A DNA stretch of 64,000 nt from NCBI GenBank assembly GCA_964510885.1, contig CAZEDL010000001.1, forward strand, positions 64,684-128,683. The letters are read 5' to 3'. Shown in pieces: positions 1-18,206 of the stretch; positions within the stretch are counted from its first letter, which is position 1, and each line of letters begins with the position of its first letter. Under the pieces are notes generated by a model that was not told the origin of the DNA, ran no database searches, and was given only the letters and a program-made list of their open reading frames with translations. The DNA comes from an uncultured Gammaproteobacteria bacterium. GTDB taxonomy: Bacteria > Patescibacteriota > Patescibacteriia > Magasanikbacterales > GWA2-37-8. The translations under genes and the position numbers were made by a program.

Positions 1-251
1 AGTAATTTAATTACTTGCTTTGTTTTTAAGTACCTTATTTGGTCTAAAATATTAATAGACTTTATCAATAAATCTTCATGAGATTTTCCATTCATTTTTC
101 CAAATCCCTTTATACGGTAAACTCTGGTTTTAATTATCTTTTTTTTCTTTATAATTGATTCAACTATTTTAATAACCTTGTCTGGAGTAATGTGGGCGAA
201 CGCCTCAACAAGCTCAAGGTTATTAAAAATATCATCGTTATTTTTTTGCAT
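1..251 (-). CDS. hypothetical protein, 3'-truncated by the window edge; part of the AT-rich element
   Basis: ATG at 249-251 (reverse strand) opens a frame (MQKNNDDIFNNLELVEAF...) that runs to position 1 with no stop. It overlaps the stop of the upstream minus-strand gene by 14 nt. It is open-ended, which is presumably why it is not in the ORF track. Confidence 0.3.
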   Translation of the reverse strand, partial: MQKNNDDIFNNLELVEAFAHITPDKVIKIVESIIKKKKIIKTRVYRIKGFGKMNGKSHEDLLIKSINILDQIRYLKTKQVIKL

Positions 252-1218
252 AGCTGATTAGTTTATCTGCCTGTCTATTAATGAAATCAAAAACAACGGG
301 GTGTCGAATGTCTGACAAATTTTTATAAATCTGTAGCTTCTGCTTATGATCAATAAATAGGCTAAATAGCTTGTCTAAATCAATTTTATTTATAGCTTCG
401 TATACAAGTAATTGGCCCACATCTCTTTTTATCTCATCCTGGGCTGACTTAAAAATATAAATATCTTTATTTTTATAAATTAATTCTTGTTTGTGCAGAC
501 TTAACAAAATATCACTCATTTGCCCTCCTGTAACTTTAAGCATTCTTGCAATTGCGCGGTATTCGACTTTTGTTACTCTGCCGACCAAATATATAATACT
601 AGCTACAAGCAGTATCTTATCTTTTAAATCTATGGCTATATTTAAAATTTCTTTAGGGAGATCTAAAAACTCATTTTTCTTTGCTAAATTTTTTATATGA
701 ACATAAAATTGTTCTACCAAATCACTATCGCCACGCTTTAGAAGTTCAAGATTGGGAATGCGAACATTTCTACTATCTTGTTTATTTGTTTTATTTAGTA
801 TCTCAATATTAATATTGCTAAAGTGATACCAATATATTTCAGGAGTACTTTGTTTCTTCGTCACCTCATTTATATTGGCAACAACAAATAAAATTGTTGG
901 CAAGTTTATTTCTTTACAAAAATCAATGAATTTGCGAGAACTTGTATAAGTTCCATCTATAATTTTTTGCTCAGTTCCTTTTAATTGAAAAAATACCACA
1001 TTGTTTAAGTAGTCCCCGTGCATGCTAGCCGCTGCTTTTCTCAGCCTTAAAAAACCATCAGTATCAGGTGTATTATCCTTTATGCCGTGAAATTGCAGAT
1101 CAAATTGATCGCCATGTTTATTCATGAAGTAGTCACTTATAATAGAAACCGCTTTTTCATCCAATCGATTCTGCTTATTATATTTAGTCATAGTGATTCT
1201 ATAATTTTTCACCCCCAC
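238..1218 (-). CDS. hypothetical protein (326 aa) of the integrated element, AT-rich, no recognisable domain
   Basis: Long ORF in the track. Lys/Ile/Asn-rich composition typical of the low-GC element. Tightly coupled to the downstream gene. Confidence 0.5.
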   Translation of the reverse strand: MGVKNYRITMTKYNKQNRLDEKAVSIISDYFMNKHGDQFDLQFHGIKDNTPDTDGFLRLRKAAASMHGDYLNNVVFFQLKGTEQKIIDGTYTSSRKFIDFCKEINLPTILFVVANINEVTKKQSTPEIYWYHFSNINIEILNKTNKQDSRNVRIPNLELLKRGDSDLVEQFYVHIKNLAKKNEFLDLPKEILNIAIDLKDKILLVASIIYLVGRVTKVEYRAIARMLKVTGGQMSDILLSLHKQELIYKNKDIYIFKSAQDEIKRDVGQLLVYEAINKIDLDKLFSLFIDHKQKLQIYKNLSDIRHPVVFDFINRQADKLISYAKK

Positions 1219-1263
1219 CCCCCTCGCTTGATATAAATAAAAATGCCTCTGATCAAGGCATTT

Positions 1264-1722
1264 TTAGTCACTTAAAATTTCAGCTTCACTTCCTGCAAGC
1301 TCTCCTTCAATATAACCAGAATCATTGGTCTGGTTTACTCGTCGTAGTATCTCAGCCATTGTAAAGCGGTGATTATGATCAATTTCGCTCTTATCTTTCC
1401 AGCCAAAGTTGTTCTTGGCGATAAAAATAGCCCCAATCGGCGGCCGGCCGGACAACAAATAAGTCTCTAGCCAACTTTCCGCATAACTTCTCGCTCTTTT
1501 TATCGTGGGAAGAAATTCGTCGCGTTCGGCATAATCAACTAGGGTCCTGCGACTACAGCCTAGCATTACCGCTAGGCCAGACATAGTAAAGGGTTGTTTA
1601 TTTGCTTCGCAATGAGCCTTATAAGCTTCGATTCTAGCTTCTAGCTCTTCTGGAGAGTTCCAGAGCCTGGGACGCCTGCTAGAGACCTTTTGGAGTTGTT
1701 TTTCGTAAGCAGGAAGTGCCAT
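1264..1722 (-). CDS. terS: phage terminase small subunit (P27/Terminase_2-like)
   Basis: 152 aa. The HTH-like block PFTMSGLAVMLGCSRRTLVDYAER, followed by GAIFIAKNNFGWKDKSE, matches the conserved core of P27-family small terminases. Confidence 0.7.
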   Translation of the reverse strand: MALPAYEKQLQKVSSRRPRLWNSPEELEARIEAYKAHCEANKQPFTMSGLAVMLGCSRRTLVDYAERDEFLPTIKRARSYAESWLETYLLSGRPPIGAIFIAKNNFGWKDKSEIDHNHRFTMAEILRRVNQTNDSGYIEGELAGSEAEILSD

Positions 1723-1783
1723 ATAAGTAAGGAAAGGTTATTTTCCTTAATTTTAGCACTTTTTTGGCTTAACTACAATCTTT

Positions 1784-2041
1784 TTATTCACTTTTAAGTC
1801 CTTTTTTGACGAGACAGTTGTTAAAAGTAGATTTGTTATAGTTTAGTACGTTTTTATTTTCAGTTATTGCTTCAGTTTGAGCCATTCTACCAACAGGGGC
1901 AATATATGCAGCCTCAGCCTGTTTATAACAATTTTTAATAATAAATGAGGGACGAACGCTATACCAAAAGAAAAATACACCTAGAATTAACAAAGAGCTT
2001 AAGATGATAACAACAAATTTATTCTCAAAAAATTTAGCCAT
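1784..2041 (-). CDS. small membrane protein (85 aa), single N-terminal TM helix
   Basis: ORF track. The hydrophobic segment VVIILSSLLILGVFFFW is predicted as a TM helix. It is divergent from the primase/integrase block. Confidence 0.4.
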   Translation of the reverse strand: MAKFFENKFVVIILSSLLILGVFFFWYSVRPSFIIKNCYKQAEAAYIAPVGRMAQTEAITENKNVLNYNKSTFNNCLVKKGLKSE

Positions 2042-2063
2042 AAGTTAAAAAATAAATAAAAAC

Positions 2064-2194
2064 GGACGCCCGACCTGCGAAACAACAATTGGCGTCCGAA
2101 GATGCCTTTTGTGTTGGTCGGAACGTCCGTTCCAGTACACAAAAAGGCAAAGGGTTTTTTACCCAAATCTTCGGACAAAGTTTGTTGTTTCGCG
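2064..2194. promoter_or_regulatory. highly structured ~130-bp region of nested perfect inverted repeats (candidate origin, operator or ncRNA of the element)
   Basis: Perfect arms: 2077-2088/2183-2194 (gcgaaacaacaa), 2093-2102/2167-2176 (gtccgaagat), 2104-2114/2137-2148 (gccttttgtgt), plus 2064-2070/2124-2130 (acggacg). Confidence 0.4.
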
Positions 2195-2431
2195 GCGTTA
2201 TGGTACCTCTAAATATAATAAGAAGTCAAATAAGATGGTCAGATTTAGGCTAACTTTAAAGTAATACATAAGGTGTGGATAATACATGAAAATTCTGTTG
2301 ATGCAGTATTTATAAAATGTTAATATTATTTATAGCTGAACGACAGAATTAGAAAAAAATCAGAAAATTAACAGTGGATAAGCACCACTTGTAAAAAAAA
2401 TTCTTAATCTTCGAGGCTAGGCAACCTCAGC

Positions 2432-2470
2432 AAAAAAGCCAGATTTCGACTATTCGAGTCTGGCTTTTTA
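2432..2470. terminator. bidirectional intrinsic terminator-like hairpin
   Basis: aaaaagccaga...tctggcttttt: GC stem flanked by an A-run and a T-run. Confidence 0.45.
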
Positions 2471-2521
2471 TTTATATCTAAAAGCGTGTAAAAAGTTAGA
2501 CTCTAAAAGTCGAACCAATTT

Positions 2522-2603
2522 ACGTGCTTGAAAATAAAACTCGTCTTTCACGAGGTAGATCGGATTCAAGCACGTATCTACTTAATTAAGAAAGACGAGT
2601 TTT
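2522..2603. promoter_or_regulatory. interleaved perfect inverted repeats, A-B-A'-B' arrangement
   Basis: A 2522-2532 acgtgcttgaa / A' 2564-2574 ttcaagcacgt. B 2537-2550 aaaactcgtctttc / B' 2590-2603 gaaagacgagtttt, followed by a T-run. Confidence 0.4.
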
Positions 2604-2635
2604 GTGTTTTTATCAAGAATAGTTAGTCCGGATTT

Positions 2636-2788
2636 ATGGTTAGTTCCCAGCAAATACAGGAACTGCAGGTAATTCTCAAGGAAGAATATGGCAAAGATAT
2701 TACCTTGGATCAGGTGTCGTTATTAGCGAACGGCTTAGTTAATTATTTCGATTTATTAGCAAAAATTTATCATCGTACTCAATAAATT
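2636..2788 (+). CDS. small ORF (50 aa) upstream of the zinc-ribbon/primase genes; possible small regulator
   Basis: ATG at 2636. Product MVSSQQIQELQVILKEEYGKDITLDQVSLLANGLVNYFDLLAKIYHRTQ. Below the ORF-track cutoff. Lies in the divergent control region. Confidence 0.25.
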
Positions 2789-2794
2789 ATATAT

Positions 2795-3016
2795 ATGCCA
2801 ATTTATTTAACTTGTCCTAAATGCAATTTGTTAATTGAACCAATAGTGATTATTCGTTTTATGAAAAATAAAAATTACACAGAAAAGCAAGATATAAAAT
2901 TTAAGTTTTGTTTGAAGGCTATTTGTTCCGAGTGTAGAGATTATATAAAATTTCTTCCTCATACAGATGAAAACATTAATTTATTTGATAATTCAGAACT
3001 CATATGGAAGAAATAA
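2795..3016 (+). CDS. small zinc-ribbon protein (CxxC...CxxC)
   Basis: 73 aa with CPKC and CSEC pairs. Overlaps the primase start by 13 nt, so translationally coupled. Confidence 0.45.
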   Translation: MPIYLTCPKCNLLIEPIVIIRFMKNKNYTEKQDIKFKFCLKAICSECRDYIKFLPHTDENINLFDNSELIWKK

Positions 3017-4767
3017 AAAAAGCCGCTTTACGATATTTGGAATTGGGTTTGTCTGTTATACCGCTTAAGCCAAAATCAAAAAATCCTTACATCTCTTCAT
3101 GGAAAGAATTTCAAAATAGACGTGCTAGTTTAGATGAAATTCAAAAATGGTGGGAGCAGCCAGATCTCAATATTGGTATAATTTGTGGACAGGTATCAAA
3201 TATAGTGGTGGTTGATATTGATAAAAATGATCCAGAAATTATTAAATCTTTGAAATTACCTCCTACTTTTATAGTAAAAACTGGTCGTGGTTTTCATTAT
3301 TATTATAGATATCCGACAGGTCTAAAAATTCCTGTAATTAAATGTTATTGGGGTGAGATTCGGGGCAATGGAGGTTATGTAGTCGGATCTCCTTCTATTC
3401 ATGTAAACGGTCAGATATACGAAGCTATATCAGATCTTTCAAGTATTGATGAGCTACCTGTGCTACCTGCTGAGTTACTTAAACGTTTTGGTGAAATGTC
3501 CAAAGGAAATAAATACGAACAGATCGTTCAAGGTGTTGCAGAAGGCGGAAGAAATAATGCTGCCGCTAGTTATATAGGTACAATTATAAATAAGATAGAT
3601 AAAGACAGGTGGGAAACAACAGCCTGGAATCTTGTGCTTTTTTGGAATTCTAAAAATATACCGCCTTTAGAAACGGCAGAACTAAGACGTACATTTGAAA
3701 GTATATGTTCGAGAGAAGTGGGTAAGCGAGAAAGCGTTCCTGGTTTTGCTGAAGATAAACCAATAAAACATTCAAACTTTACTATCACGAAATGTAGTGA
3801 AATGTTAACAAAAGAAGTCGAAAAATTTCCCTATATTATTGATCGGATCGTTCCCGAGCATGCAATTACTGCTATTACCGCTGATACCGGTAAGGGGAAG
3901 AGTTTGTTCGCGCTATTTTTGGCTAAAGCGGTCGCTGCGGGAGAAAAATTATTTGGTGAGTTTGAAGTTAAAAAAAATAAAGTCTTATTTATTGACCAGG
4001 AAATGGATGGGGATTTAATCATAGGACGTTTCAAATCAATAATCACCGAGAATATCGATATCGATTATATTTATGAACAATTTTGGACTATCAATAACGA
4101 AGAAGACTATGAATGGCTAAAGAATGAAATTATTTCTCAAAAGTACGGGTTAATTATTTTTGATACCCTAACGACCATACACACTCTCGAAGAGAACAGT
4201 GCTGATGATATGAAAAAACTTAATAAATTATTCCTACGTCTTATCAAAGAAACGGGCACTACTATAATTTATTTACATCATCATCGTAAACAGCAAAGTG
4301 GAGAAGCTCGAAATGGGTCATTATCCCGTGGATCAACTGAAATTACTGCTAAAGTGGCTAGTCATTTAAGATTGGAATCTAAAAGAGAGGGCGGGTTCTT
4401 AGAAGAAAAGATGATATTAAATATGACCTTAACACAGGAAAAAGCCAGAAGACCAGAAAGCATCTCGACGATTGGAATAAAGGTTACCCATGATAAAAAA
4501 AGTAAGATTACCACCTATGACTATCAGGGGATGGTTGAAGAGAATTTTGGACAAATAGAACAGGCCAAGAATTTAATTATCAAGGAACTTGAAGAAGATT
4601 ATCCTGAATTAACTGTTAGACAAGTTAAAGAGCACTCAGATATAGGATTAAACAGCATAAGAATAGCATTCAAGGAGCTTGTGAGGAAAGGTGTTTTAGA
4701 CTCTCGCAAGGCTGAGCATAATACATGCTATTATTTTTTGCGACCCCAACAGGTAACCACTCTTTAG
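3004..4767 (+). CDS. replication primase-helicase: bifunctional Prim-Pol domain + PriCT_1 + RecA/D5-like P-loop NTPase + C-terminal wHTH
   Basis: N-terminal LSVIPLKPKSKNPY...VVVDIDKND (Prim-Pol). PriCT-like segment NLVLFWNSKNIPPLETAELRRTFESI. Walker A ADTGKGKS. Confidence 0.8.
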   Translation: MEEIKKAALRYLELGLSVIPLKPKSKNPYISSWKEFQNRRASLDEIQKWWEQPDLNIGIICGQVSNIVVVDIDKNDPEIIKSLKLPPTFIVKTGRGFHYYYRYPTGLKIPVIKCYWGEIRGNGGYVVGSPSIHVNGQIYEAISDLSSIDELPVLPAELLKRFGEMSKGNKYEQIVQGVAEGGRNNAAASYIGTIINKIDKDRWETTAWNLVLFWNSKNIPPLETAELRRTFESICSREVGKRESVPGFAEDKPIKHSNFTITKCSEMLTKEVEKFPYIIDRIVPEHAITAITADTGKGKSLFALFLAKAVAAGEKLFGEFEVKKNKVLFIDQEMDGDLIIGRFKSIITENIDIDYIYEQFWTINNEEDYEWLKNEIISQKYGLIIFDTLTTIHTLEENSADDMKKLNKLFLRLIKETGTTIIYLHHHRKQQSGEARNGSLSRGSTEITAKVASHLRLESKREGGFLEEKMILNMTLTQEKARRPESISTIGIKVTHDKKSKITTYDYQGMVEENFGQIEQAKNLIIKELEEDYPELTVRQVKEHSDIGLNSIRIAFKELVRKGVLDSRKAEHNTCYYFLRPQQVTTL

Positions 4768-5016
4768 TTTAGTAGTTTGTTTGTTAGTATATAAACTATT
4801 AATAAACCAATAAGCACATTCTTTAGACTTGTAAGAAGAGTCTAAAGATGGTCTGCATTTTCCCCTTAATCAATAAACTACTAAACTGTAAAGATGTTTT
4901 TTATCTTAGATTAGCCAAGAATGTATTTATTAAAAAATCTTAATAACCTAAAAATAAACTAATACTCTTTTTACTTAAGAACTAAGCTAGACTATAATAG
5001 TTAAAAATAAATTCAT

Positions 5017-6606
5017 ATGGAAAATAAACCGCTACAGTGTATTATCTACGCTCGCGTATCCTCTAAAGAACAAGAGGAAACAGGGTACTCTCTGGATGCA
5101 CAGGAGAATTTATTAGCTACCTATGCTCAAAAGCAGGGATATAAGGTGGCAAAAACTTTCAAAATTACTGAATCGGCGAGTGGGAAACAGATCAGAAAAA
5201 TGTTTAACGACATGATGATTTATACGACAAAGCATTCAGTGCCCATCATCTTGTGTGAGAAAATCGATCGTCTTACCAGAAATCTAAAGGATGCAGCATT
5301 AATTAGTGATTGGCTAAACGAAGATGAGCGACGAGAAGTTCATTTTGTAAAAGAGTCGTTTGTAGTCAATAAAAACACCCGAGCCCATGAGAACCTGGTG
5401 TGGGATATGAAGGTAGCGATAGCTAGATTTTATACTAATAACCTTTCCGAAGAGGTTAAAAAGGGTCAAAAAGAGAAAATATCTCAAGGCGGCTATCCAT
5501 GTATGCCGCCCCTTGGTTACAAGACTATTGGAGAAAAAGGACATAAAATTTGCGTACCCGATGAAACAAAAGCTCCTCTTATTGCTAAAGCCTTTGAGCT
5601 ATATTCAGCCGGCCAATATTCAATTAATGCTTTGTGCAGGACAATGCACGAAGCTGGTCTTAGAAACCGTAACGGAGCAATGGTAAGCAAAACTCAGATG
5701 CATCGTTATCTAAGCGAGACGTTCTACTGTGGCCATTTCTATTGGAATGGAAAAATGTATAAAGGCACTCATACGCCCATAATCTCCCAAGAGCTCTATA
5801 ATTTAGTTCAACATAAACTAGTTCGCTCTTCTTCTAATCCTCAGTATAAGAAGCATTTAACAGTGTTTAAAGCGGCTATAAAGTGCGGTGAATGCGGGGG
5901 AGTTATAACTTGGGAACTTCAGAAGCAACATTGGTACGGCCATTGTAATCATTATAGGAAGTGCAGCCAAAAGAGTTACCTGCGTCAAGAAGAAGTAGAA
6001 AAACAGCTATTCCCTTATTTTGATAAAATTGCACCAAAAAATGACCGCATACTGCAATGGCTTGACGAAGCCTTAAAGGAGCATCATGGGGAAGAGATTA
6101 AACTTACTACCACAAAAAGAAGCCAATTAAATGCTCAATTTGAGCGTATTCAAAAAAGATTAGAAGCCATGTATCTTGATAAGCTCGACGGTCGGATCAC
6201 TATGGAATTTTATGACACTAAATTTAAAGAATTTACGGAAGAGAAAGAAGTCATACTTAGCGAACTCCAAAAATTAAATAACGATAACAATCTGTACTAC
6301 GAAGCTGGTTATGCCATCCATCTTTTAGCCAGTAAAGCGAAAGAAATTTATCAAAGTGAAAAGGCTACAGTTGAGGAGAAAAGATTATTACTGAGTTACG
6401 TATTTTCGAACCAAACACTAAAAGATCGAACCTTAGCCGTAAATTACACTCCAGCATTTGAATTTCTCGCAAAATGGGTACCACTCCTCAATCGTAGTTT
6501 CGAACCATCAAAAAAGAGCTTAGATAAAATGAAAACAGAGGCTTTTGCCTCTGCTCGTTCGGTTGTGCTCCGGGGGTGGGATTCGAACCCACGACCAATT
6601 GGTTAA
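5017..6606 (+). CDS. large serine recombinase (integrase)
   Basis: Catalytic N-terminus IYARVSSKEQEETGYSLDAQE with DRLTR motif, recombinase domain and Cys zinc ribbon (CGECGG...C..C). The last ~38 nt of the CDS overlap the 3' end of tRNA-Asn. Confidence 0.85.
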   Translation: MENKPLQCIIYARVSSKEQEETGYSLDAQENLLATYAQKQGYKVAKTFKITESASGKQIRKMFNDMMIYTTKHSVPIILCEKIDRLTRNLKDAALISDWLNEDERREVHFVKESFVVNKNTRAHENLVWDMKVAIARFYTNNLSEEVKKGQKEKISQGGYPCMPPLGYKTIGEKGHKICVPDETKAPLIAKAFELYSAGQYSINALCRTMHEAGLRNRNGAMVSKTQMHRYLSETFYCGHFYWNGKMYKGTHTPIISQELYNLVQHKLVRSSSNPQYKKHLTVFKAAIKCGECGGVITWELQKQHWYGHCNHYRKCSQKSYLRQEEVEKQLFPYFDKIAPKNDRILQWLDEALKEHHGEEIKLTTTKRSQLNAQFERIQKRLEAMYLDKLDGRITMEFYDTKFKEFTEEKEVILSELQKLNNDNNLYYEAGYAIHLLASKAKEIYQSEKATVEEKRLLLSYVFSNQTLKDRTLAVNYTPAFEFLAKWVPLLNRSFEPSKKSLDKMKTEAFASARSVVLRGWDSNPRPIG

Positions 6607-6639
6607 CAGCCAACTGCGCTACCGCTGCGCTACCCCGGA
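6568..6639 (-). tRNA. tRNA-Asn (anticodon GTT)
   Basis: Reverse complement folds as a cloverleaf: acceptor TCCGGGG/CCCCGGA, D-arm GCGC/GCGC, anticodon stem GTTGG/CCAAT with loop CTGTTAA, T-arm GTGGG-TTCGAAT-CCCAC. No CCA encoded. Confidence 0.85.
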
Positions 6640-11224: not shown

Positions 11225-12334
11225 TTGTTCAGATCTATGGTAAAATCGGTATCAGATGATTTATTTTTAGCCCGCACGCTAGCGCTAGCTAAGAAAGGTC
11301 GTGGTCACACAAGTCCGAATCCGCTCGTTGGGTGTGTAATTGTAAAAAATAATCGGGTTCTGGCCGAAGGGTACCATCACCGCCTTGGCGGAGCTCATGC
11401 AGAAATCGAAGCTCTCGCCGCCGCCAAAAAACACGGAGTATCGGTGCGTGGTGCCACCCTGTATGTTAATTTAGAACCGTGCTCATACCAGGGGCGTCAG
11501 CCGCCCTGCGCTCCGGCTCTCGTGGCGGCCGGCATTACCCGAGTAGTTTTTTGTACGATCGATCCCAATCCTCGGGTAGCAGGAAAAGGCGCCGCGCTCT
11601 TACGCCAATCAAGTATCGAAGTAAGCTCCGGCCATCTCGAAGCCGAGGCACGCGCGTTGAATGAATCTTTTTTTACCTACCACGAAACTAAGCGCCCGTT
11701 CATCGCCCTTAAATATGCCGCCAGCCTCGACGGCAAAATTGCTACCTATACCGGCGATTCTAAATGGATAACTAATGAGGCTTCGCGCGCGTATGCACGG
11801 TCTCTACGTGGAATATACCAGGCTATCTTGGTTGGAATAGGCACAGTGCTCACTGACGATCCACATCTCGGCTCACGCCAAAAAAACACCACCGACCCGC
11901 TGCGGATTATTCTAGATAGTTCACTACGCATCCCTCTCTCAAGCCAAGTGCTGCGTGATAACAATGTCCTTATCGTCACAACCCACCTGGCTAGCAAAAC
12001 TAAACTGGCTGCACTCAAAAAACGCGGTTTCTCTGTGGTTTCGTTTAGAGGAAAAACTATTCCTATTCCCGCCCTCTTAAAAGTTTTAAAAGAGCGTGAA
12101 ATAATTAGCGTGTTAGTTGAAGGTGGTGGAACCGTACTCGGCAGTTTTATTGATCAGGGGTTGGTTGATAAGGTGTACATATTTCAAGCTCCACTTATCG
12201 TGGGTGGAGTCGGCGCGATTAGTGCGGTCGGCGGCCGAGGCGCCAAAACTATTAAATCTTCCCTGTACTTACAGCGGGTAGAGCGTCATGCTATTGGTTC
12301 TGATCTGTTGACGATTGGGTATCTGCGAGCTTAG
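11225..12334 (+). CDS. ribD: bifunctional riboflavin biosynthesis deaminase/reductase
   Basis: CMP/dCMP deaminase zinc motif HAEIEAL...LEPCSYQGRQPPC plus a C-terminal RibD reductase domain. Confidence 0.85.
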   Translation: MFRSMVKSVSDDLFLARTLALAKKGRGHTSPNPLVGCVIVKNNRVLAEGYHHRLGGAHAEIEALAAAKKHGVSVRGATLYVNLEPCSYQGRQPPCAPALVAAGITRVVFCTIDPNPRVAGKGAALLRQSSIEVSSGHLEAEARALNESFFTYHETKRPFIALKYAASLDGKIATYTGDSKWITNEASRAYARSLRGIYQAILVGIGTVLTDDPHLGSRQKNTTDPLRIILDSSLRIPLSSQVLRDNNVLIVTTHLASKTKLAALKKRGFSVVSFRGKTIPIPALLKVLKEREIISVLVEGGGTVLGSFIDQGLVDKVYIFQAPLIVGGVGAISAVGGRGAKTIKSSLYLQRVERHAIGSDLLTIGYLRA

Positions 12335-13520: not shown

Positions 13521-15371
13521 TTAGGTTAATTTTTTTACTATACCTACAATGGCCTCGGCTGAAATTCCTTCATACTCAAGTAGTTCTTCCGGCTTCCCAC
13601 TCATCGACATCTTGGTTACAGCCAGAGAGTGCACAACTGCCCCGGTGTCAAATACTGCGCTACGCACCGCTTCAGCCAGGCCGCCTTCGGGGTAATGGTC
13701 TTCAACTACAATAAGATGCTTGGTTTCAGTTGCAGCCGTGGTGAGAGTGATGGTGTCAATTGGTTTAACACTATAAAGGTCTATGACTCGAACCATAATA
13801 CCTTCCTGTTGTAATAGGTCATAAGCCTTTAAAGCTTCATGCAAAGTTATACCCGCTGCCACGATCGTGGCCGCATCAGTCGCACTCGTTTTAAGTGTTT
13901 TGCTTCCGCCGATCGGAAATTTCTCGTCGGTAGAGTAGAGGATTGCGGTATCTTTGCGGGTAGTCCGCATATAGATAAGCCCAGGCGTTTCAGCCATCGT
14001 GGCAGTTAATTTTTCTGTCGACACCGCATCACTCGGGTACAGTACCGTGCTGCCAAGCACCGCCCGGAACAAACTAATATCTTCTAGGGCCATCTGTGAT
14101 GACCCATCTTCACCAATCGATACACCTGCATGAGACCCAACAAATTTTATATTCCCCTCAGAATATTGACTCATCCGAATCTGATCAGCTGCCCGGGTGA
14201 AAAATGCGGCAAAGGTAGATACGAAAGGAATTTCGCCGCGCCGCGATAGCCCAAGGGCGGTGCTTACCATATTCTGCTCGGCAATATACATTTCAAAAAA
14301 TCGCTCCGGCGCTGTTTTTTTAGCCAGTTCGGCATAGGTAGAGTTGCTTGTTTCCGCATCAAGCACGACCACTCGTTCATTAGCGGTTACTAGTTTGGCA
14401 AGCGCGTTGCCGTAGGCGCGGCGGGTGGAGGTGGGTTTATCGTAATGTGAAGAAGCTGGAATCTGGAAGTTAGAATTTGGAAAATTGTTTCGGATTTCGG
14501 ATTTTAGATTCCGGATTTCCGTCTTCAATGGTTGTTCTATAATACCCCTTATATTTAAATCCACCTCACCAAGTTCTGCTAACGCTTTTTCTAACTCTTC
14601 CTTTGAAAGCGTTTTACCATGCCACCCATCTTTATTTTCTAAAAATGAAACACCTTTACCCTTCACCGTCTTGGCAATTATCATAACTGGTTTGTCAGTG
14701 GTACTCTGAGCGGTTTCAAACGCAGTTGCTATCTCTTCAAGATTATGGCCATCTATTTCAATCGCTTTCCACCCAAAGGACTCAACTCGGGCAACATACG
14801 TATCAGTGTCATGCCCGAGCATCGTTTCACCGCGCTGACCTAGGCGATTTATGTCAATAATCCCAACCAGATTATTTAATCTATAATGGCTAGCCACTTC
14901 GAGTGCCTCCCACACTGATCCTTCAGCCATTTCACTGTCCCCAAGCAGAACATACGTCCGATAGGATAAGTTTCGAAGCCGCGCCTGCAGCGCCATCCCC
15001 AGGCCAATCGATAATCCTTGGCCAAGCGAACCGGTCGCTGCCTCAGTATAAGGAAATTTCAATGTCGGATGACCTTCCAGACGGCTGCCAAATTTTCTAA
15101 GCGTATTTAATTCTTTCGCTTCAATCGCACCGGCCGCTGCATAGAGTGAGTAAAATAGGGGAGAGGCATGGCCTTTGCTAAAAATCAGCCGGTCGTTATT
15201 AATGTATGCTGGATCATCTAGTTTGGCTTTAAAAATTCCGCCAAATAGCAACACGGACATAACATCAGCTGCCGATAGCGAAGAACTAGGGTGCCCTGAT
15301 CCGGCTGCTGTGGTAGAAGTTAAGCATAGATAACGAACCAGTTTAGCAATTTTAAATAATTGTTCATCCAT
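13521..15371 (-). CDS. tkt: transketolase
   Basis: N-terminal TPP motif AAGSGHPSSSLSAADVM, full three-domain length of 616 aa. Confidence 0.9.
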   Translation of the reverse strand: MDEQLFKIAKLVRYLCLTSTTAAGSGHPSSSLSAADVMSVLLFGGIFKAKLDDPAYINNDRLIFSKGHASPLFYSLYAAAGAIEAKELNTLRKFGSRLEGHPTLKFPYTEAATGSLGQGLSIGLGMALQARLRNLSYRTYVLLGDSEMAEGSVWEALEVASHYRLNNLVGIIDINRLGQRGETMLGHDTDTYVARVESFGWKAIEIDGHNLEEIATAFETAQSTTDKPVMIIAKTVKGKGVSFLENKDGWHGKTLSKEELEKALAELGEVDLNIRGIIEQPLKTEIRNLKSEIRNNFPNSNFQIPASSHYDKPTSTRRAYGNALAKLVTANERVVVLDAETSNSTYAELAKKTAPERFFEMYIAEQNMVSTALGLSRRGEIPFVSTFAAFFTRAADQIRMSQYSEGNIKFVGSHAGVSIGEDGSSQMALEDISLFRAVLGSTVLYPSDAVSTEKLTATMAETPGLIYMRTTRKDTAILYSTDEKFPIGGSKTLKTSATDAATIVAAGITLHEALKAYDLLQQEGIMVRVIDLYSVKPIDTITLTTAATETKHLIVVEDHYPEGGLAEAVRSAVFDTGAVVHSLAVTKMSMSGKPEELLEYEGISAEAIVGIVKKLT

Positions 15372-15833: not shown

Positions 15834-18206
15834 TTATTTTTTAACACTGTGGCCTCCAAACTGATTACGCATTGTAGACAGTAATTGCCCGGTATAGCTT
15901 GGCTTCTTTTTCGATTTCACGCGGAAATTAAACGAATCTTCAATCACAGGGGCAGGTACTTTTAATTTCTTGGCAGTTTTCACCGTCCACTCGCCTTCGC
16001 CCGTATAGTTTACCGCTCCCGAGACTGATTTCAAATTTTCACCATATGCTTCAAAGCCGCTTTTCAGCCAGCCGACCAGCCGTGATTCTATTACGCTGCC
16101 GCGGTTGTACAGCCGTGCCACCTCAGTGAGGTTTGGTTTGAAGTTAGATTTTTTCATCACGGCAAAACCTTCGGCAATTGCCTGCATCATACCATATTCA
16201 ATCCCATTATGTACCATTTTAATAAAATGCCCAGCACCAGCGCCATCAAACATGGCATAGCCTTCGGGCAGCGCGAGATCAACCCATAAGTGCTCAAGCC
16301 GCTTGGCTCGTTTTTGTCCGCCACCAATCATGAGGCAGGCACCATTCCTGGCTCCGGCCGGACCACCAGATACTCCCACATCCAAAAAGTGAATGCCTCG
16401 TTTTTCAAGCAATTTACCACGTCGTTCGGAATCAAGGTAAAACGAATTACCTCCATCTATAATCGTGTCACCCCGCTCAACATAGTTAATAAGCCCGTCT
16501 TGCGTGCCAAATAGTACCTCATCAACGGGCGCTCCTGCAGGCACCATCATCCAAATCAATCGCGGAGCGGGCAGGCTGTCGACTAATTCTTTAAGTGTAG
16601 TTGCGGTCCGTGCGCGAATTTCTTGTCCAAGCGTCATGGCGACTTCATGGGTACGATTAAATAGAGTGGTGCTCCAGCCTTTTTCTGCCAACCGTCGAGC
16701 CACATTTGCCCCCATTTTTCCGAGACCAATAATACCAATTGATTTTGAAAGCACAATCGGCATAGAGGCAGCCGGCTTGGTTTCAGTAATGACTGCTACA
16801 TCCGGTTCGTATTGCTCGAGTATCACTCCGTTATTTTTCCATACGTGAATAATTGGGTCGATAAATTTCCACATTGCTTTAATCTCTCGAGTCTCATTAA
16901 ACAGTGTTTGGTCGCCCATAATACAGTCGAGAAGAATTTTTTTGTATTCTTCGACATAAAGCATGTCGCTCTTCTGCCCCCGCAGTAAAAAATCGATCGT
17001 TCGCTCATCGAGCTTATATTCTATACCCGGCAATTTAGACCAAAATTTAATACTAATGCCTTCGGTAGGCTCGACCGAAAAAATAATTTGATTCTGATGA
17101 TGTGGCTCCCCAGGGGGACACCAGCAAGGAGATGTATGTTTAAAGGTTACAATAATTTCTTTTTTGCGTACTCCGAGCCGTTTTCCACTCTCGAGCATGA
17201 TAGGCACCCCACTCCACCGCGGAGAGTCAAGCTCAAAGGTGAGCTTAAAGTACGTTTCGTTATTAGAATTTTTGGCCACGCCAACAATGTCTTGGTATCC
17301 GGCATATTGTGCCCGGCGGGTAGATTTTTTAATATCTTTAGCAGATAACTTGGGAAGTTTTTCAAGCAGTTTCATGCGTTCATCACGGATTGCCTCAGGC
17401 GAAAACTCAGCCGGCTGATTCATAGTTACAAGTCCCAGCATTTGCAAGAGATGGTTCTGCCCCATATCACGCAGCGCCCCCACGGAGTCATAATACCGAC
17501 CTCGCTCTTCCACTCCGAGCGTTTCCCAAAGACGCAAATCAATTCGCTCAATAAATTGATTATTCCATATGGGCTCGAATAAATTATTGGCAAATCTAAA
17601 GCTCAAAATATTCTGCAACATCGTTTTGGCCAAGTAGTGATCGATGCGATAAATTTGTTCTTCCTTAAATAGCTTGCCTAATCGTTCATCTAGTCGTTCG
17701 GCCGTTTTTAAATCGTTGCCAAACGGTTTTTCTACCAGCACACGACTCCAGCCTTCCGCTGCGGAACAAGGCTTGGTTAAATTAGACTGCGCTAAATTTT
17801 CTACAATCGGTTCGATAAATGTTGGCGGCACGGCCAAATAAAAGAGTTTATTCGAGCAAGCCTTCCATTCGCCATCGATATACCCTAGGCGTTCAGCCAG
17901 CGAACGATACGCCTGAAGCGCATCAAAATCACCCTGTTGCCACTCAATCCGTTTCAAAAATCCAGCCACCTGATCGGCTGGTGTAGTTTTGAATTCAGCT
18001 CGCTCCAAAATAATCTGCCGCACCTGGTCACGGAATGCCTCTGCCGTTAAATTTCGATGTGAAAATCCAATAATATGAAATAAGCGGGGTAATTTTTTTT
18101 CTAAATAGAGATGAAATAATGCGGGCACGATTTTGCGCCCCATCAAATCGCCAGTAGCCCCAAAAATAATAAGGATCGTAGGTAATGTAAGAGAGGTAAA
18201 ATCCAT
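15834..18206 (-). CDS. fusion protein: glucose-6-phosphate dehydrogenase (N-terminal ~480 aa) + short-form 6-phosphogluconate dehydrogenase, decarboxylating (C-terminal ~300 aa)
   Basis: G6PD motifs IIFGATGDLMGRKIVPAL and RIDHYLAKTMLQNI. 6PGDH motifs IGIIGLGKMGANVARRL, GAGHFIKMVHNGIEYGMMQAIAEG and RNQFGGHSV. Single uninterrupted 790-aa frame. Confidence 0.85.
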   Translation of the reverse strand: MDFTSLTLPTILIIFGATGDLMGRKIVPALFHLYLEKKLPRLFHIIGFSHRNLTAEAFRDQVRQIILERAEFKTTPADQVAGFLKRIEWQQGDFDALQAYRSLAERLGYIDGEWKACSNKLFYLAVPPTFIEPIVENLAQSNLTKPCSAAEGWSRVLVEKPFGNDLKTAERLDERLGKLFKEEQIYRIDHYLAKTMLQNILSFRFANNLFEPIWNNQFIERIDLRLWETLGVEERGRYYDSVGALRDMGQNHLLQMLGLVTMNQPAEFSPEAIRDERMKLLEKLPKLSAKDIKKSTRRAQYAGYQDIVGVAKNSNNETYFKLTFELDSPRWSGVPIMLESGKRLGVRKKEIIVTFKHTSPCWCPPGEPHHQNQIIFSVEPTEGISIKFWSKLPGIEYKLDERTIDFLLRGQKSDMLYVEEYKKILLDCIMGDQTLFNETREIKAMWKFIDPIIHVWKNNGVILEQYEPDVAVITETKPAASMPIVLSKSIGIIGLGKMGANVARRLAEKGWSTTLFNRTHEVAMTLGQEIRARTATTLKELVDSLPAPRLIWMMVPAGAPVDEVLFGTQDGLINYVERGDTIIDGGNSFYLDSERRGKLLEKRGIHFLDVGVSGGPAGARNGACLMIGGGQKRAKRLEHLWVDLALPEGYAMFDGAGAGHFIKMVHNGIEYGMMQAIAEGFAVMKKSNFKPNLTEVARLYNRGSVIESRLVGWLKSGFEAYGENLKSVSGAVNYTGEGEWTVKTAKKLKVPAPVIEDSFNFRVKSKKKPSYTGQLLSTMRNQFGGHSVKK

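What the first reader, a model, noticed from the sequence alone, without database searches (positions are those of the whole stretch)
1..6639. tRNA-Asn-integrated, AT-rich element with serine integrase + Prim-Pol primase-helicase + lone terS: phage-satellite-like architecture
The left 6.6 kb is ~15% lower in GC than the rest of the window. It ends exactly at tRNA-Asn(GTT), and the large serine recombinase ORF reads ~38 nt into the tRNA 3' end, the usual signature of integration that reconstitutes a tRNA. The cargo visible here is: integrase; a Prim-Pol/PriCT_1/RecA-like replication protein preceded by a coupled zinc-ribbon ORF; and, diverging from a palindrome-packed control region, a small membrane protein, a P27-type terminase SMALL subunit and two unknown genes. 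There is no large terminase, portal, capsid or tail within 6.6 kb. Established knowledge: phage-inducible chromosomal islands and P4-like satellites typically carry exactly int + pri/rep + terS to hijack helper-phage packaging. A serine-integrase version in a reduced-genome (possibly CPR) bacterium would be unusual. The alternative is the right arm of a larger prophage whose structural genes lie upstream of position 1.
Basis: partly seen in the sequence, partly recalled or inferred. Interest (0 to 1): 0.72.

Follow-up and report, generated by a model that had tools for sequence, protein, structure and literature searches.

The report
Satellite-like mobile island in CPR bacterium
The left 6.6 kb of the window is one end of a small mobile DNA island inserted into a tRNA gene of an ultra-small (CPR) bacterium; it has its own integration and replication genes plus one lone phage DNA-packaging gene, which is the hallmark of elements that travel in another virus's capsids and has not been described in this bacterial group.

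Summary
Window 1-6566 has 34.7% GC against 46.0% for the host. It abuts tRNA-Asn(GTT), and a 529-aa large serine integrase reads 40 nt into the tRNA 3' end. The region also encodes a Prim-Pol/PriCT_1/RepA-like helicase and a small terminase. The host is a Magasanikbacteria-like CPR bacterium.

The left end lies outside the window and could not be recovered, so the element's size and its other att site are unknown. Relatives favour a small island over a prophage arm:
- **Closest TerS (63% identity):** it sits alone in a bounded ~17-kb tRNA-Trp island with a serine integrase, a primase and defence genes, and no TerL.
- **Primase relatives:** they sit in small islands where a conserved backbone carries swappable defence cargo.
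- **Other TerS homologues:** about 90 are followed directly by TerL. Here a terminator and a DUF4365 nuclease-like gene follow instead.

Best reading (about 0.55): a PICI-like, defence-carrying phage satellite of a new lineage. No helper phage, excision or packaging has been shown. Main rivals are a non-satellite defence island (0.25) and a prophage arm (0.12).

The parts
1..251 (-). 5' part of a cargo ORF that runs off the left edge of the window (83 aa visible). Its ATG overlaps the stop of the DUF4365 gene.
   Evidence: Translation. No Pfam, PHROG or PADLOC hit. Weak similarity (27% over 79 aa, E 2e-8) to residues ~232-310 of the RelA_SpoT cargo protein of related island L002.
238..1218 (-). 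Cargo gene: DUF4365 (PD-(D/E)xK, DREN-type nuclease domain) protein of 326 aa, or 317 aa from the ATG at 1191 as called by NCBI. Putative defence nuclease.
   Evidence: PF14280 at 1.2e-6, 29 bits, above the 24.3-bit cutoff. DUF4365 is the nuclease domain of SPARDA short-Argonaute systems (PMC10810196 abstract). No PADLOC hit. The AF2 single-sequence model was unusable (pLDDT 36). The 317-aa form is in the NCBI record.
1238..1266 (-). Intrinsic-terminator-like hairpin (12 pairs plus a T run) that starts at the terS stop codon.
   Evidence: An equivalent hairpin follows the terS of L089 (10534-10570).
1264..1722 (-). Lone small terminase subunit (TerS), P22 gp3 / PF16677 type, 152 aa.
   Evidence: PF16677 1.3e-20; phrog_606 1.1e-21. 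All 16 family-invariant residues are present. AF2 model pLDDT 74, top PDB fold hit P22 gp3 3p9a (prob 0.97, TM 0.49-0.55). 44% identical to the annotated TerS of C. perfringens phages. In 91 homologous loci the next ORF is TerL.
1784..2041 (-). First gene of the leftward operon: 85-aa protein with one N-terminal hydrophobic helix. Function unknown.
   Evidence: No family hit. Called as a gene in the NCBI record.
2054..2203 (.). Conserved ~146-nt long imperfect hairpin in the divergent control region. Candidate replication origin or structured regulatory RNA.
   Evidence: MFE -65.4 kcal/mol, z -6.4 on either strand. 89-91% identical over 96-110 nt to L004 7922-8029, while the primase genes are ~67% identical in DNA and 48% in protein. 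RNAalifold gives 43 pairs, 5 compensatory and none broken. No Rfam match.
2204..2635 (.). Rest of the control region. It contains a terminator-like hairpin at 2439-2470 (+) and nested palindromes at 2521-2608 upstream of the rightward operon.
2636..2785 (+). orf49, first gene of the rightward operon. Candidate recombination-directionality factor or regulator.
   Evidence: Homologues (45-50% identity) lie immediately upstream of the related serine integrases in L256 and L257. Partly called on Logan contig L001.
2795..3016 (+). 73-aa CxxC...CxxC zinc-ribbon-like ORF. It overlaps the primase start by 13 nt.
   Evidence: The identical ORF is called on Logan contig L001.
3004..4767 (+). Replication protein: Prim-Pol + PriCT_1 + RepA-like (AAA_25) helicase, 587 aa.
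   Evidence: Pfam 1.6e-28, 9.7e-11 and 2.5e-23. PDB sequence hits are RSF1010 RepA 1g8y and pRN1 ORF904 1rni. All invariant residues of 18 full-length homologues are present.
5017..6606 (+). Large serine integrase, 529 aa. Its last 13 codons and stop are the complement of the tRNA-Asn 3' part.
   Evidence: PDB hits are the TP901-1 and A118 integrases. The same overlap with tRNA-Asn occurs in L005 (28% identity) and L256 (52% identity).
6533..6556 (-). Terminator hairpin for the tRNA gene, embedded in the integrase coding sequence.
   Evidence: The structure is conserved in L005 and L256, where the sequence and the encoded peptide differ.
6567..6639 (-). tRNA-Asn(GTT), the integration target and the int-proximal junction (attR).
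   Evidence: 92% identical to the tRNA-Asn at the junction of L005.

Best explanation
Window 1-6639 is the integrase-proximal part of a small island, probably 10-17 kb, integrated by a large serine integrase into the 3' part of tRNA-Asn in a Magasanikbacteria-like CPR bacterium. The island is built from exchangeable modules that circulate among CPR mobile elements: (i) an integrase (with orf49) whose attP lies in its own 3' end and which supplies the tRNA 3' segment and its terminator; (ii) a Prim-Pol/RepA-type replicase operon next to a conserved long hairpin that may be the origin; (iii) a leftward arm carrying a lone, terminator-bounded phage small terminase followed by separately transcribed, probably anti-phage cargo (a DUF4365 nuclease and more). 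Proposed mechanism, with only the anatomy shown and every step inferred: on infection by a pac-type helper phage the island excises and replicates from its own origin. Its TerS then binds an island pac site and recruits the helper's TerL, so island DNA is packaged into helper capsids, as in a PICI-like satellite that also brings defence genes to its host.
For: Anatomy and intact domains. TerS identity comes from four independent lines: Pfam/PHROG hits, the fold match to P22 gp3, annotated TerS of cultured phages, and TerL as the immediate neighbour in 91 homologous loci (44 Terminase_6N, 41 Terminase_3). Among all TerS loci with more than 1.5 kb downstream, only L089 lacks any TerL-like sequence. 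L089 is also the closest relative (63% identity). It is a bounded ~16.9-kb island in a 593-kb contig with the same layout: a serine integrase overlapping the tRNA-Trp 3' end, a primase, a divergent control region, terS plus terminator, then type I R-M, DUF4238 and NERD genes, and a degenerate tRNA remnant at the far end. A phage contig (L092) has a 58%-identical TerS directly upstream of TerL, so a plausible donor or helper lineage exists. Primase relatives (43-48% identity) lie in small low-GC islands. L002 is about 10 kb by GC profile, and the others are truncated by contig ends. Their cargo is RelA_SpoT/PDC-S33, a NACHT/Cap4-nuclease protein, Lamassu LmuB or a C5 methylase, and none has structural genes. 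L002 and L253 share a 98%-identical integrase but carry different cargo. L005 shows the same integrase/tRNA-Asn overlap with a 23-nt att repeat 13.2 kb away. A terminator follows the terS stop. No TerL exists in the 64-kb window.
Against: The left end is not in the window and could not be retrieved, so size, second att site and absence of structural genes are unverified. In a few phage loci TerL lies 1.4-6.5 kb from terS (L228, L137, L159, L200), so TerL beyond base 1 is possible. Most primase-family relatives have no terS, so terS is not a core gene of the family. No AlpA-, Stl- or MerR-type regulator, capsid-size or interference gene was recognised. No helper phage, excised circle or packaged form has been shown. 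Only two independent lone-terS islands are known so far: this one and L089.
Confidence: 0.55

Rival explanations
1. It is a non-satellite integrative replicon or defence island, like a pipolin or a cargo-type tycheposon. It integrates, excises and replicates with its own integrase and Prim-Pol helicase and spreads by transformation or generalised transduction. The terS-like gene would be a captured phage gene now serving as a DNA-binding regulator or anti-phage decoy, or a recent passenger.
For: Most relatives with the same replicase backbone carry only defence cargo and no terS. The cargo is swapped on a constant backbone. No other hijacking or regulatory satellite gene was recognised. The island TerS subclade has its own C-terminal tail, which differs from the nearest phage TerS.
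Against: The TerS keeps every invariant residue of a family that is otherwise almost always coupled to TerL. It is 63% identical between two islands whose integrases are only 26% identical and whose replicases are unrelated, which indicates selection for the terS module itself.
Confidence: 0.25
2. It is the right arm of an ordinary temperate phage whose TerL, portal, capsid, tail and lysis genes lie to the left of base 1, with DUF4365 as a moron inserted between terS and terL.
For: The element is truncated by the window edge and low GC continues to base 1. Four TerS loci have TerL 1.4-6.5 kb downstream. The TerS family is a genuine phage family.
Against: A strong terminator follows terS, then at least 1.26 kb of non-terminase genes. 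The closest TerS and all close replicase relatives are in small islands (three of them bounded) with no structural genes. In about 90 phage loci TerL overlaps or abuts terS.
Confidence: 0.12
3. It is an integrated filamentous (inovirus-like) prophage, like the elements that carry the most similar integrases.
For: The closest integrase relatives (52-55% identity, L256 and L257) sit next to Zot and gpII-like Rep genes, and L256 ends in tRNA-Asn.
Against: The window has no Zot or rolling-circle Rep. Replication here is by a Prim-Pol helicase, and a TerS has no role in inovirus assembly.
Confidence: 0.02

Closest known systems
Phage-inducible chromosomal islands (PICIs, e.g. SaPIs), as defined in de Sousa et al. 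2023 (PMC10085698)
   Same: A site-specific integrase, its own primase-replicase, a lone terS without TerL or structural genes, accessory or defence genes after terS, and an expected size near 10-17 kb judged from relatives.
   Different: The integrase is a serine type and sits at the end of the replication operon, transcribed into the tRNA. No alpA/stl/merR regulator or capsid-morphogenesis gene was recognised. The replicase is a Prim-Pol + RSF1010-RepA-like helicase. The host is a CPR bacterium. Helper dependence is untested.
[quoted passage not shown]
   Same: tRNA-integrated 10-20-kb elements of streamlined genomes with an integrase plus primase/helicase backbone. One evolutionarily linked group contains terS-bearing (PICI-like) members and cargo-bearing members.
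   Different: Tycheposons almost all use a specific tyrosine recombinase lineage (910 of 937). Their PICI-like members were never seen with extra cargo, whereas this island and L089 combine terS with defence cargo. No homology of hallmark genes was tested.
Pipolins (PMC11551731)
   Same: Bimodular, self-replicating integrative elements at tRNA genes that hold exchangeable defence systems (abstract). The L002/L253 pair shows the same behaviour.
   Different: The defining primer-independent PolB is absent. The replicase here is a Prim-Pol helicase, and pipolins are not defined by a terS.
PLE of Vibrio cholerae, and PICMIs of marine vibrios (own knowledge, not tested here)
   Same: PLE is a satellite that uses a large serine recombinase. 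PICMIs are minimal satellites built around an integrase plus a lone terS.
   Different: There is no sequence relationship. PLE has no terS, and PICMIs lack a replicase and use tyrosine integrases.
Phage P22 gp3 small terminase (PDB 3p9a; PF16677)
   Same: The TerS here belongs to this Pfam family and the model's best fold match is gp3.
   Different: 21% identity. It is not adjacent to a TerL, and its C-terminal tail is shared only with the other island-borne copies.

Membership tests
PICI (five core components, PMC10085698) | Integrase (tyrosine or serine treated as exchangeable) | tested here: met
   Large serine integrase 5017-6606.
PICI | Regulation module homologous to alpA, merR or stl | tested here: not met
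   No such Pfam or PHROG hit in any visible ORF. orf49 and the zinc-ribbon ORF are uncharacterised. The part left of base 1 is unseen.
PICI | Primase-replicase module | tested here: met
   Prim-Pol + PriCT_1 + AAA_25 protein 3004-4767. Homology to PICI Pri-Rep profiles was not tested.
PICI | Capsid-morphogenesis / interference gene | tested here: not met
   None recognised in 1-6639. SaPI-type PICIs also lack the proteobacterial marker.
PICI | Small terminase without TerL or other structural or lysis genes | tested here: inconclusive
   The terS is present and lone within the window, and there is no TerL in 64 kb. The element is cut at base 1.
PICI | Induction, replication and packaging dependent on a helper phage | not testable with these tools
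   Needs read mapping, viromes or culture.
Large serine recombinase (phage-type serine integrase) | N-terminal resolvase catalytic domain + recombinase domain + zinc ribbon / coiled coil | tested here: met
   PF00239 2e-23, PF07508 8.5e-16, PF13408 5e-4 (below cutoff). The YARVSSKEQ motif is present. PDB hits are TP901-1 and A118.
Small terminase, PF16677 (P22 gp3 type) | Profile match above the curated cutoff, family-invariant residues, and fold | tested here: met
   73.9 bits against a 29.4-bit cutoff; invariant residues present; top fold hit 3p9a.
Small terminase, PF16677 (P22 gp3 type) | Encoded next to its TerL partner | tested here: not met
   A terminator and then the DUF4365 gene follow. 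No TerL-like sequence exists in the window.
Temperate tailed prophage | TerL, portal, major capsid, tail and lysis genes within the att-bounded element | tested here: inconclusive
   None in the visible 6.6 kb. The region left of base 1 is unavailable.
Tycheposon | tRNA integration by the tycheposon-specific tyrosine recombinase lineage and shared hallmark genes | tested here: not met
   The integrase is a serine recombinase. Hallmark-gene homology was not tested.
Pipolin | Primer-independent family-B DNA polymerase (piPolB) | tested here: not met
   No PolB domain in any ORF.
Inovirus prophage | Zot-like morphogenesis ATPase and rolling-circle Rep | tested here: not met
   Absent from the window. 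Present in L256, which carries the related integrase.

The most novel reading that the evidence does not exclude
This island and L089 are the first phage satellites of Candidate Phyla Radiation bacteria. They would form a lineage that integrates into tRNA genes with large serine integrases whose genes overlap the tRNA, replicates with its own primase-helicase, pirates a pac-type helper phage through a lone P22-gp3-type TerS, and delivers anti-phage cargo. That would add a fourth layer (satellite on phage on episymbiont on host) to CPR biology. The 146-nt conserved hairpin would be its origin or a new structured regulatory RNA.
Probability: 0.45. Interest if true: 0.75.

Novelty: new variant of a known kind. 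Interest (0 to 1): 0.6.

Why it matters
CPR/Patescibacteria are a large share of bacterial diversity. Their genomes are tiny and few mobile elements are known in them. I found no paper describing phage satellites in them. If these islands are satellites, they show that capsid piracy and satellite-borne defence extend to ultra-small episymbionts. They would also provide a natural vehicle (tRNA-specific serine integrase, compact replicon, packaging gene) for genetic tools in an almost intractable group. Even under the more conservative reading, the comparison uncovers a modular family of CPR integrative replicons in which one backbone carries interchangeable defence systems, much like pipolins and tycheposons in other phyla. 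It also shows an integrase lineage that is shared with inovirus-like prophages.

Tried and rejected
**Extending the contig leftwards (all failed)**
- Exact-protein look-ups of the integrase, TerS, DUF4365 (326-aa and 317-aa forms) and a host protein found nothing.
- The primase exists only on a 2.4-kb Logan contig.
- The source genome is not among the GTDB representatives.
- The proteins are recorded only from an unindexed 400,724-bp NCBI contig.

**Looking for the second att site**
- No tRNA-Asn fragment repeat exists in the 64-kb window.
- No tRNA-Arg 3' repeat was found in L002.

- The P27/Terminase_4 assignment of terS is rejected, because the match is to PF16677.
- PADLOC gave no credible defence-system hit for the window's ORFs.
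- PDB sequence searches with TerS and DUF4365 returned only noise.

**Characterising DUF4365**
- The AF2 single-sequence model of DUF4365 was unusable (pLDDT 36).
- DUF4365 has no relatives in IMG/VR.

**Looking for terS in relatives**
- No terS homologue was found in the primase relatives L002, L004, L253 and L254 by tblastn.
- Pfam and PHROG scans of the small ORFs of L002 and L004 also found none.
- L173, the best JGI TerS hit, is too short downstream to classify.

**Finding more copies of the conserved hairpin**
- The one exact match in IMG/VR (L255) is a chance hit inside a GC-rich coding region.
- There was no Rfam family match.


Full report
**1. The observation**

The left 6.57 kb has 34.7% GC against 46.0% for the rest of the window. 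No host stretch of the same length falls below 43.7% (sd 1.0%), and the low GC runs to base 1.

ARAGORN and Rfam place tRNA-Asn(GTT) at 6567-6639 on the minus strand.

ORF 5017-6606(+) is a large serine integrase:
- It has Resolvase, Recombinase and zinc-ribbon domains and matches phrog_95 at 3e-71.
- Its PDB sequence hits are the TP901-1 and A118 integrases.
- It overlaps the tRNA by 40 nt and ends at the TAA that is the complement of the anticodon loop.

Upstream in the same direction lie orf49 (2636-2785), a CxxC...CxxC ORF (2795-3016) and the replicase (3004-4767). The zinc-ribbon ORF overlaps the start of the replicase by 13 nt. The replicase is a Prim-Pol/PriCT_1/AAA_25 protein whose PDB relatives are pRN1 ORF904 and RSF1010 RepA.

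A 594-nt control region separates this operon from four leftward genes: an 85-aa membrane protein, a small terminase, a DUF4365 protein and a truncated ORF.

The one factual error is the terminase type. It is PF16677 GP3_package / phrog_606, not P27.

No structural-gene family matches any ORF of the region. 91 TerL queries find nothing anywhere in the 64 kb.

**2. Host and provenance**

The window's proteins are recorded from one 400,724-bp NCBI contig. The host alanyl-tRNA synthetase is 73-78% identical to proteins named Candidatus Magasanikbacteria, Parcubacteria or Patescibacteria, so the CPR guess is right.

The contig could not be extended:
- It is not indexed for context look-ups.
- It is not among the GTDB representatives.
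- The only other copy is a 2.4-kb Logan contig.

The left boundary is therefore unknown, and no tRNA-Asn fragment is repeated within the window.

**3. Is the terS real, and is 'lone' unusual?**

- **Conserved residues:** the protein keeps all 16 invariant residues of 38 homologues.
- **Fold:** the AlphaFold model (pLDDT 74) has P22 gp3 (3p9a) as its best PDB match (prob 0.97, TM about 0.5).
- **Cultured relatives:** these are annotated small terminases at the left ends of C. perfringens phage genomes.
- **Genomic context:** I fetched 160 loci encoding homologues from IMG/VR and metagenomes. In 91 loci with room downstream, the next ORF starts at or near the terS stop. It matches Terminase_6N in 44 cases and Terminase_3 in 41, and only one neighbour hits an unrelated family.
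- **Exceptions:** most of the remaining loci still have TerL 0.6-6.5 kb away. The only locus with more than 1.5 kb downstream and no TerL at all is L089.

In the window, a 12-bp-stem terminator begins at the terS stop. The remaining 1.26 kb is filled by the DUF4365 gene and the start of another ORF.

**4. The closest relatives are small islands**

- **L089 (TerS 63% identical; 593-kb JGI contig, host GC about 0.48).** The order is: serine integrase (26% identical to ours), whose 3' end overlaps tRNA-Trp; a Toprim primase; small ORFs; a divergent control region; a 395-aa ORF; terS plus terminator; then type I R-M, DUF4238 and NERD genes. A degenerate copy of the tRNA-Trp 3' end lies about 16.9 kb from the tRNA. 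There are no TerL or PHROG structural hits.
- **L092 (phage-like contig).** A 58%-identical TerS sits directly upstream of a Terminase_3 TerL.
- **L002 (primase 43% identical; ~10-kb low-GC island at tRNA-Arg).** The serine integrase overlaps the tRNA. The cargo is a 999-aa RelA_SpoT protein.
- **L253.** Its integrase is 98% identical to that of L002, but the cargo is Lamassu LmuB plus PADLOC candidate systems.
- **L254.** The cargo is a C5 methylase.
- **L004 (primase 48% identical).** It has a tyrosine integrase and a 1,955-aa NACHT/Cap4-nuclease protein. For these four islands.
- **L005 (GTDB MAG).** It shows exactly the window's integrase/tRNA-Asn overlap, with a 23-nt att repeat 13.2 kb away. 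Its cargo is R-M, GmrSD and SLOG genes.
- **L256 and L257 (integrases 52-55% identical, the closest found).** They carry Zot and gpII-like Rep genes, so they are inovirus-like prophages. L256 also ends in tRNA-Asn, and both have an orf49 homologue just upstream of the integrase.

Integrase, replicase, terS and cargo therefore behave as exchangeable modules. The DUF4365 gene occupies the cargo position. DUF4365 is the nuclease domain of SPARDA defence systems, but no defence function is shown here.

**5. Mechanism**

What is shown:
- an intact integrase, replicase and TerS;
- insertion at the tRNA, with the element supplying the tRNA 3' segment;
- a terminator hairpin for the tRNA inside the integrase coding sequence, conserved in structure but not in sequence in L005 and L256.

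What is inferred:
- excision, possibly aided by orf49;
- replication from an origin, for which the 146-nt hairpin is a candidate;
- TerS-directed packaging by a helper phage's TerL;
- benefit to the host from the cargo.

The hairpin is 89-91% identical to L004, while the primase genes are only about 67% identical in DNA. RNAalifold finds 43 pairs, of which 5 are compensatory and none broken.

**6. Comparison with known systems**

By the five-component PICI definition, the visible part has three components (integrase, replicase, terS). It lacks a recognisable regulator and a capsid-morphogenesis gene, and its gene order differs. It therefore works like a PICI but is not shown to be one.

It parallels tycheposons, which combine tRNA insertion with an integrase plus primase/helicase backbone and have terS-bearing or cargo-bearing members. 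It also parallels pipolins, which are self-replicating platforms for defence genes. It lacks the defining recombinase of the former and the defining polymerase of the latter.

No paper in the searched library describes satellites in CPR bacteria.

**7. Verdict**

The satellite-like reading is the best supported (about 0.55) but unproven. The main rivals are a non-satellite defence island (0.25) and a prophage arm (0.12).

Novelty: a new variant of a known kind. Interest: 0.6.

Noticed in passing
window 2054-2203; L004 7922-8085: A ~146-nt long imperfect hairpin in the divergent control region is 89-91% identical between two elements whose primases are only 48% identical in protein. It has 5 compensatory pairs, none broken, and no Rfam match. 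The 5' flank ACGGACGCCCGACC is also complementary to the central GGTCGGAACGTCCGT, so an alternative pairing or pseudoknot is possible. It may be an origin or a new structured RNA.
   Followed up: partly
window 6533-6556 (minus); L005 ~14108-14136; L256 ~11497-11522: The intrinsic terminator of the tRNA-Asn gene lies inside the integrase coding sequence. The hairpin is kept in three elements while its sequence and the encoded peptide differ, so the element supplies both the tRNA 3' end and its terminator.
   Followed up: partly
window 2636-2785; L256 9461-9592; L257 9820-9951 and 9484-9630: The 49-aa ORF that opens the rightward operon has 45-50% identical homologues immediately upstream of the related serine integrases in two other elements. 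This makes it a candidate recombination-directionality factor or regulator.
   Followed up: partly
L256 and L257 (IMG/VR contigs): The closest integrase relatives belong to inovirus-like prophages (Zot, gpII-like Rep). L256 is inserted at tRNA-Asn. The cargo includes a D12 methyltransferase (L256) and a reverse transcriptase (L257). One serine-integrase lineage therefore serves both filamentous prophages and Prim-Pol islands.
   Followed up: partly
L002 versus L253: The two islands share a 98%-identical integrase and an 85%-identical 216-aa protein but carry entirely different cargo (RelA_SpoT/PDC-S33 versus Lamassu LmuB + PDC-S31 + PDC-M36A). This indicates recent cargo swapping on one backbone.
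   Followed up: partly
L002 13811-13842 and 13969-14000: A perfect 32-nt repeat of the 5' half of tRNA-Arg lies 158 nt beyond the tRNA on the host side, while no repeat of the 3' half was found at the far end of the island. It may be the scar of an earlier or tandem integration.
   Followed up: no
L005 3646-4965: A complete histidyl-tRNA synthetase gene lies between the 23-nt att repeats of the 13.2-kb island, among defence genes (SLOG, PRTase-CE, GmrSD-HNH, EcoRI-type methylase).
   Followed up: no
window 1-251 (minus); L002 7165-7398: The truncated leftmost ORF is weakly similar (27% over 79 aa, E 2e-8) to a region downstream of the RelA_SpoT domain in the 999-aa cargo protein of L002.
   Followed up: no
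window 2521-2608: Two interleaved palindromes (TACGTGCTTGAA/TTCAAGCACGTA and AAAACTCGTCTTTC/GAAAGACGAGTTTT) lie just upstream of orf49. They could form alternative hairpins, as in an attenuator or operator.
   Followed up: no
window 15834-18206 (minus): The host encodes a single 790-aa fusion of glucose-6-phosphate dehydrogenase (residues 10-467) and 6-phosphogluconate dehydrogenase (residues 489-790).
   Followed up: no
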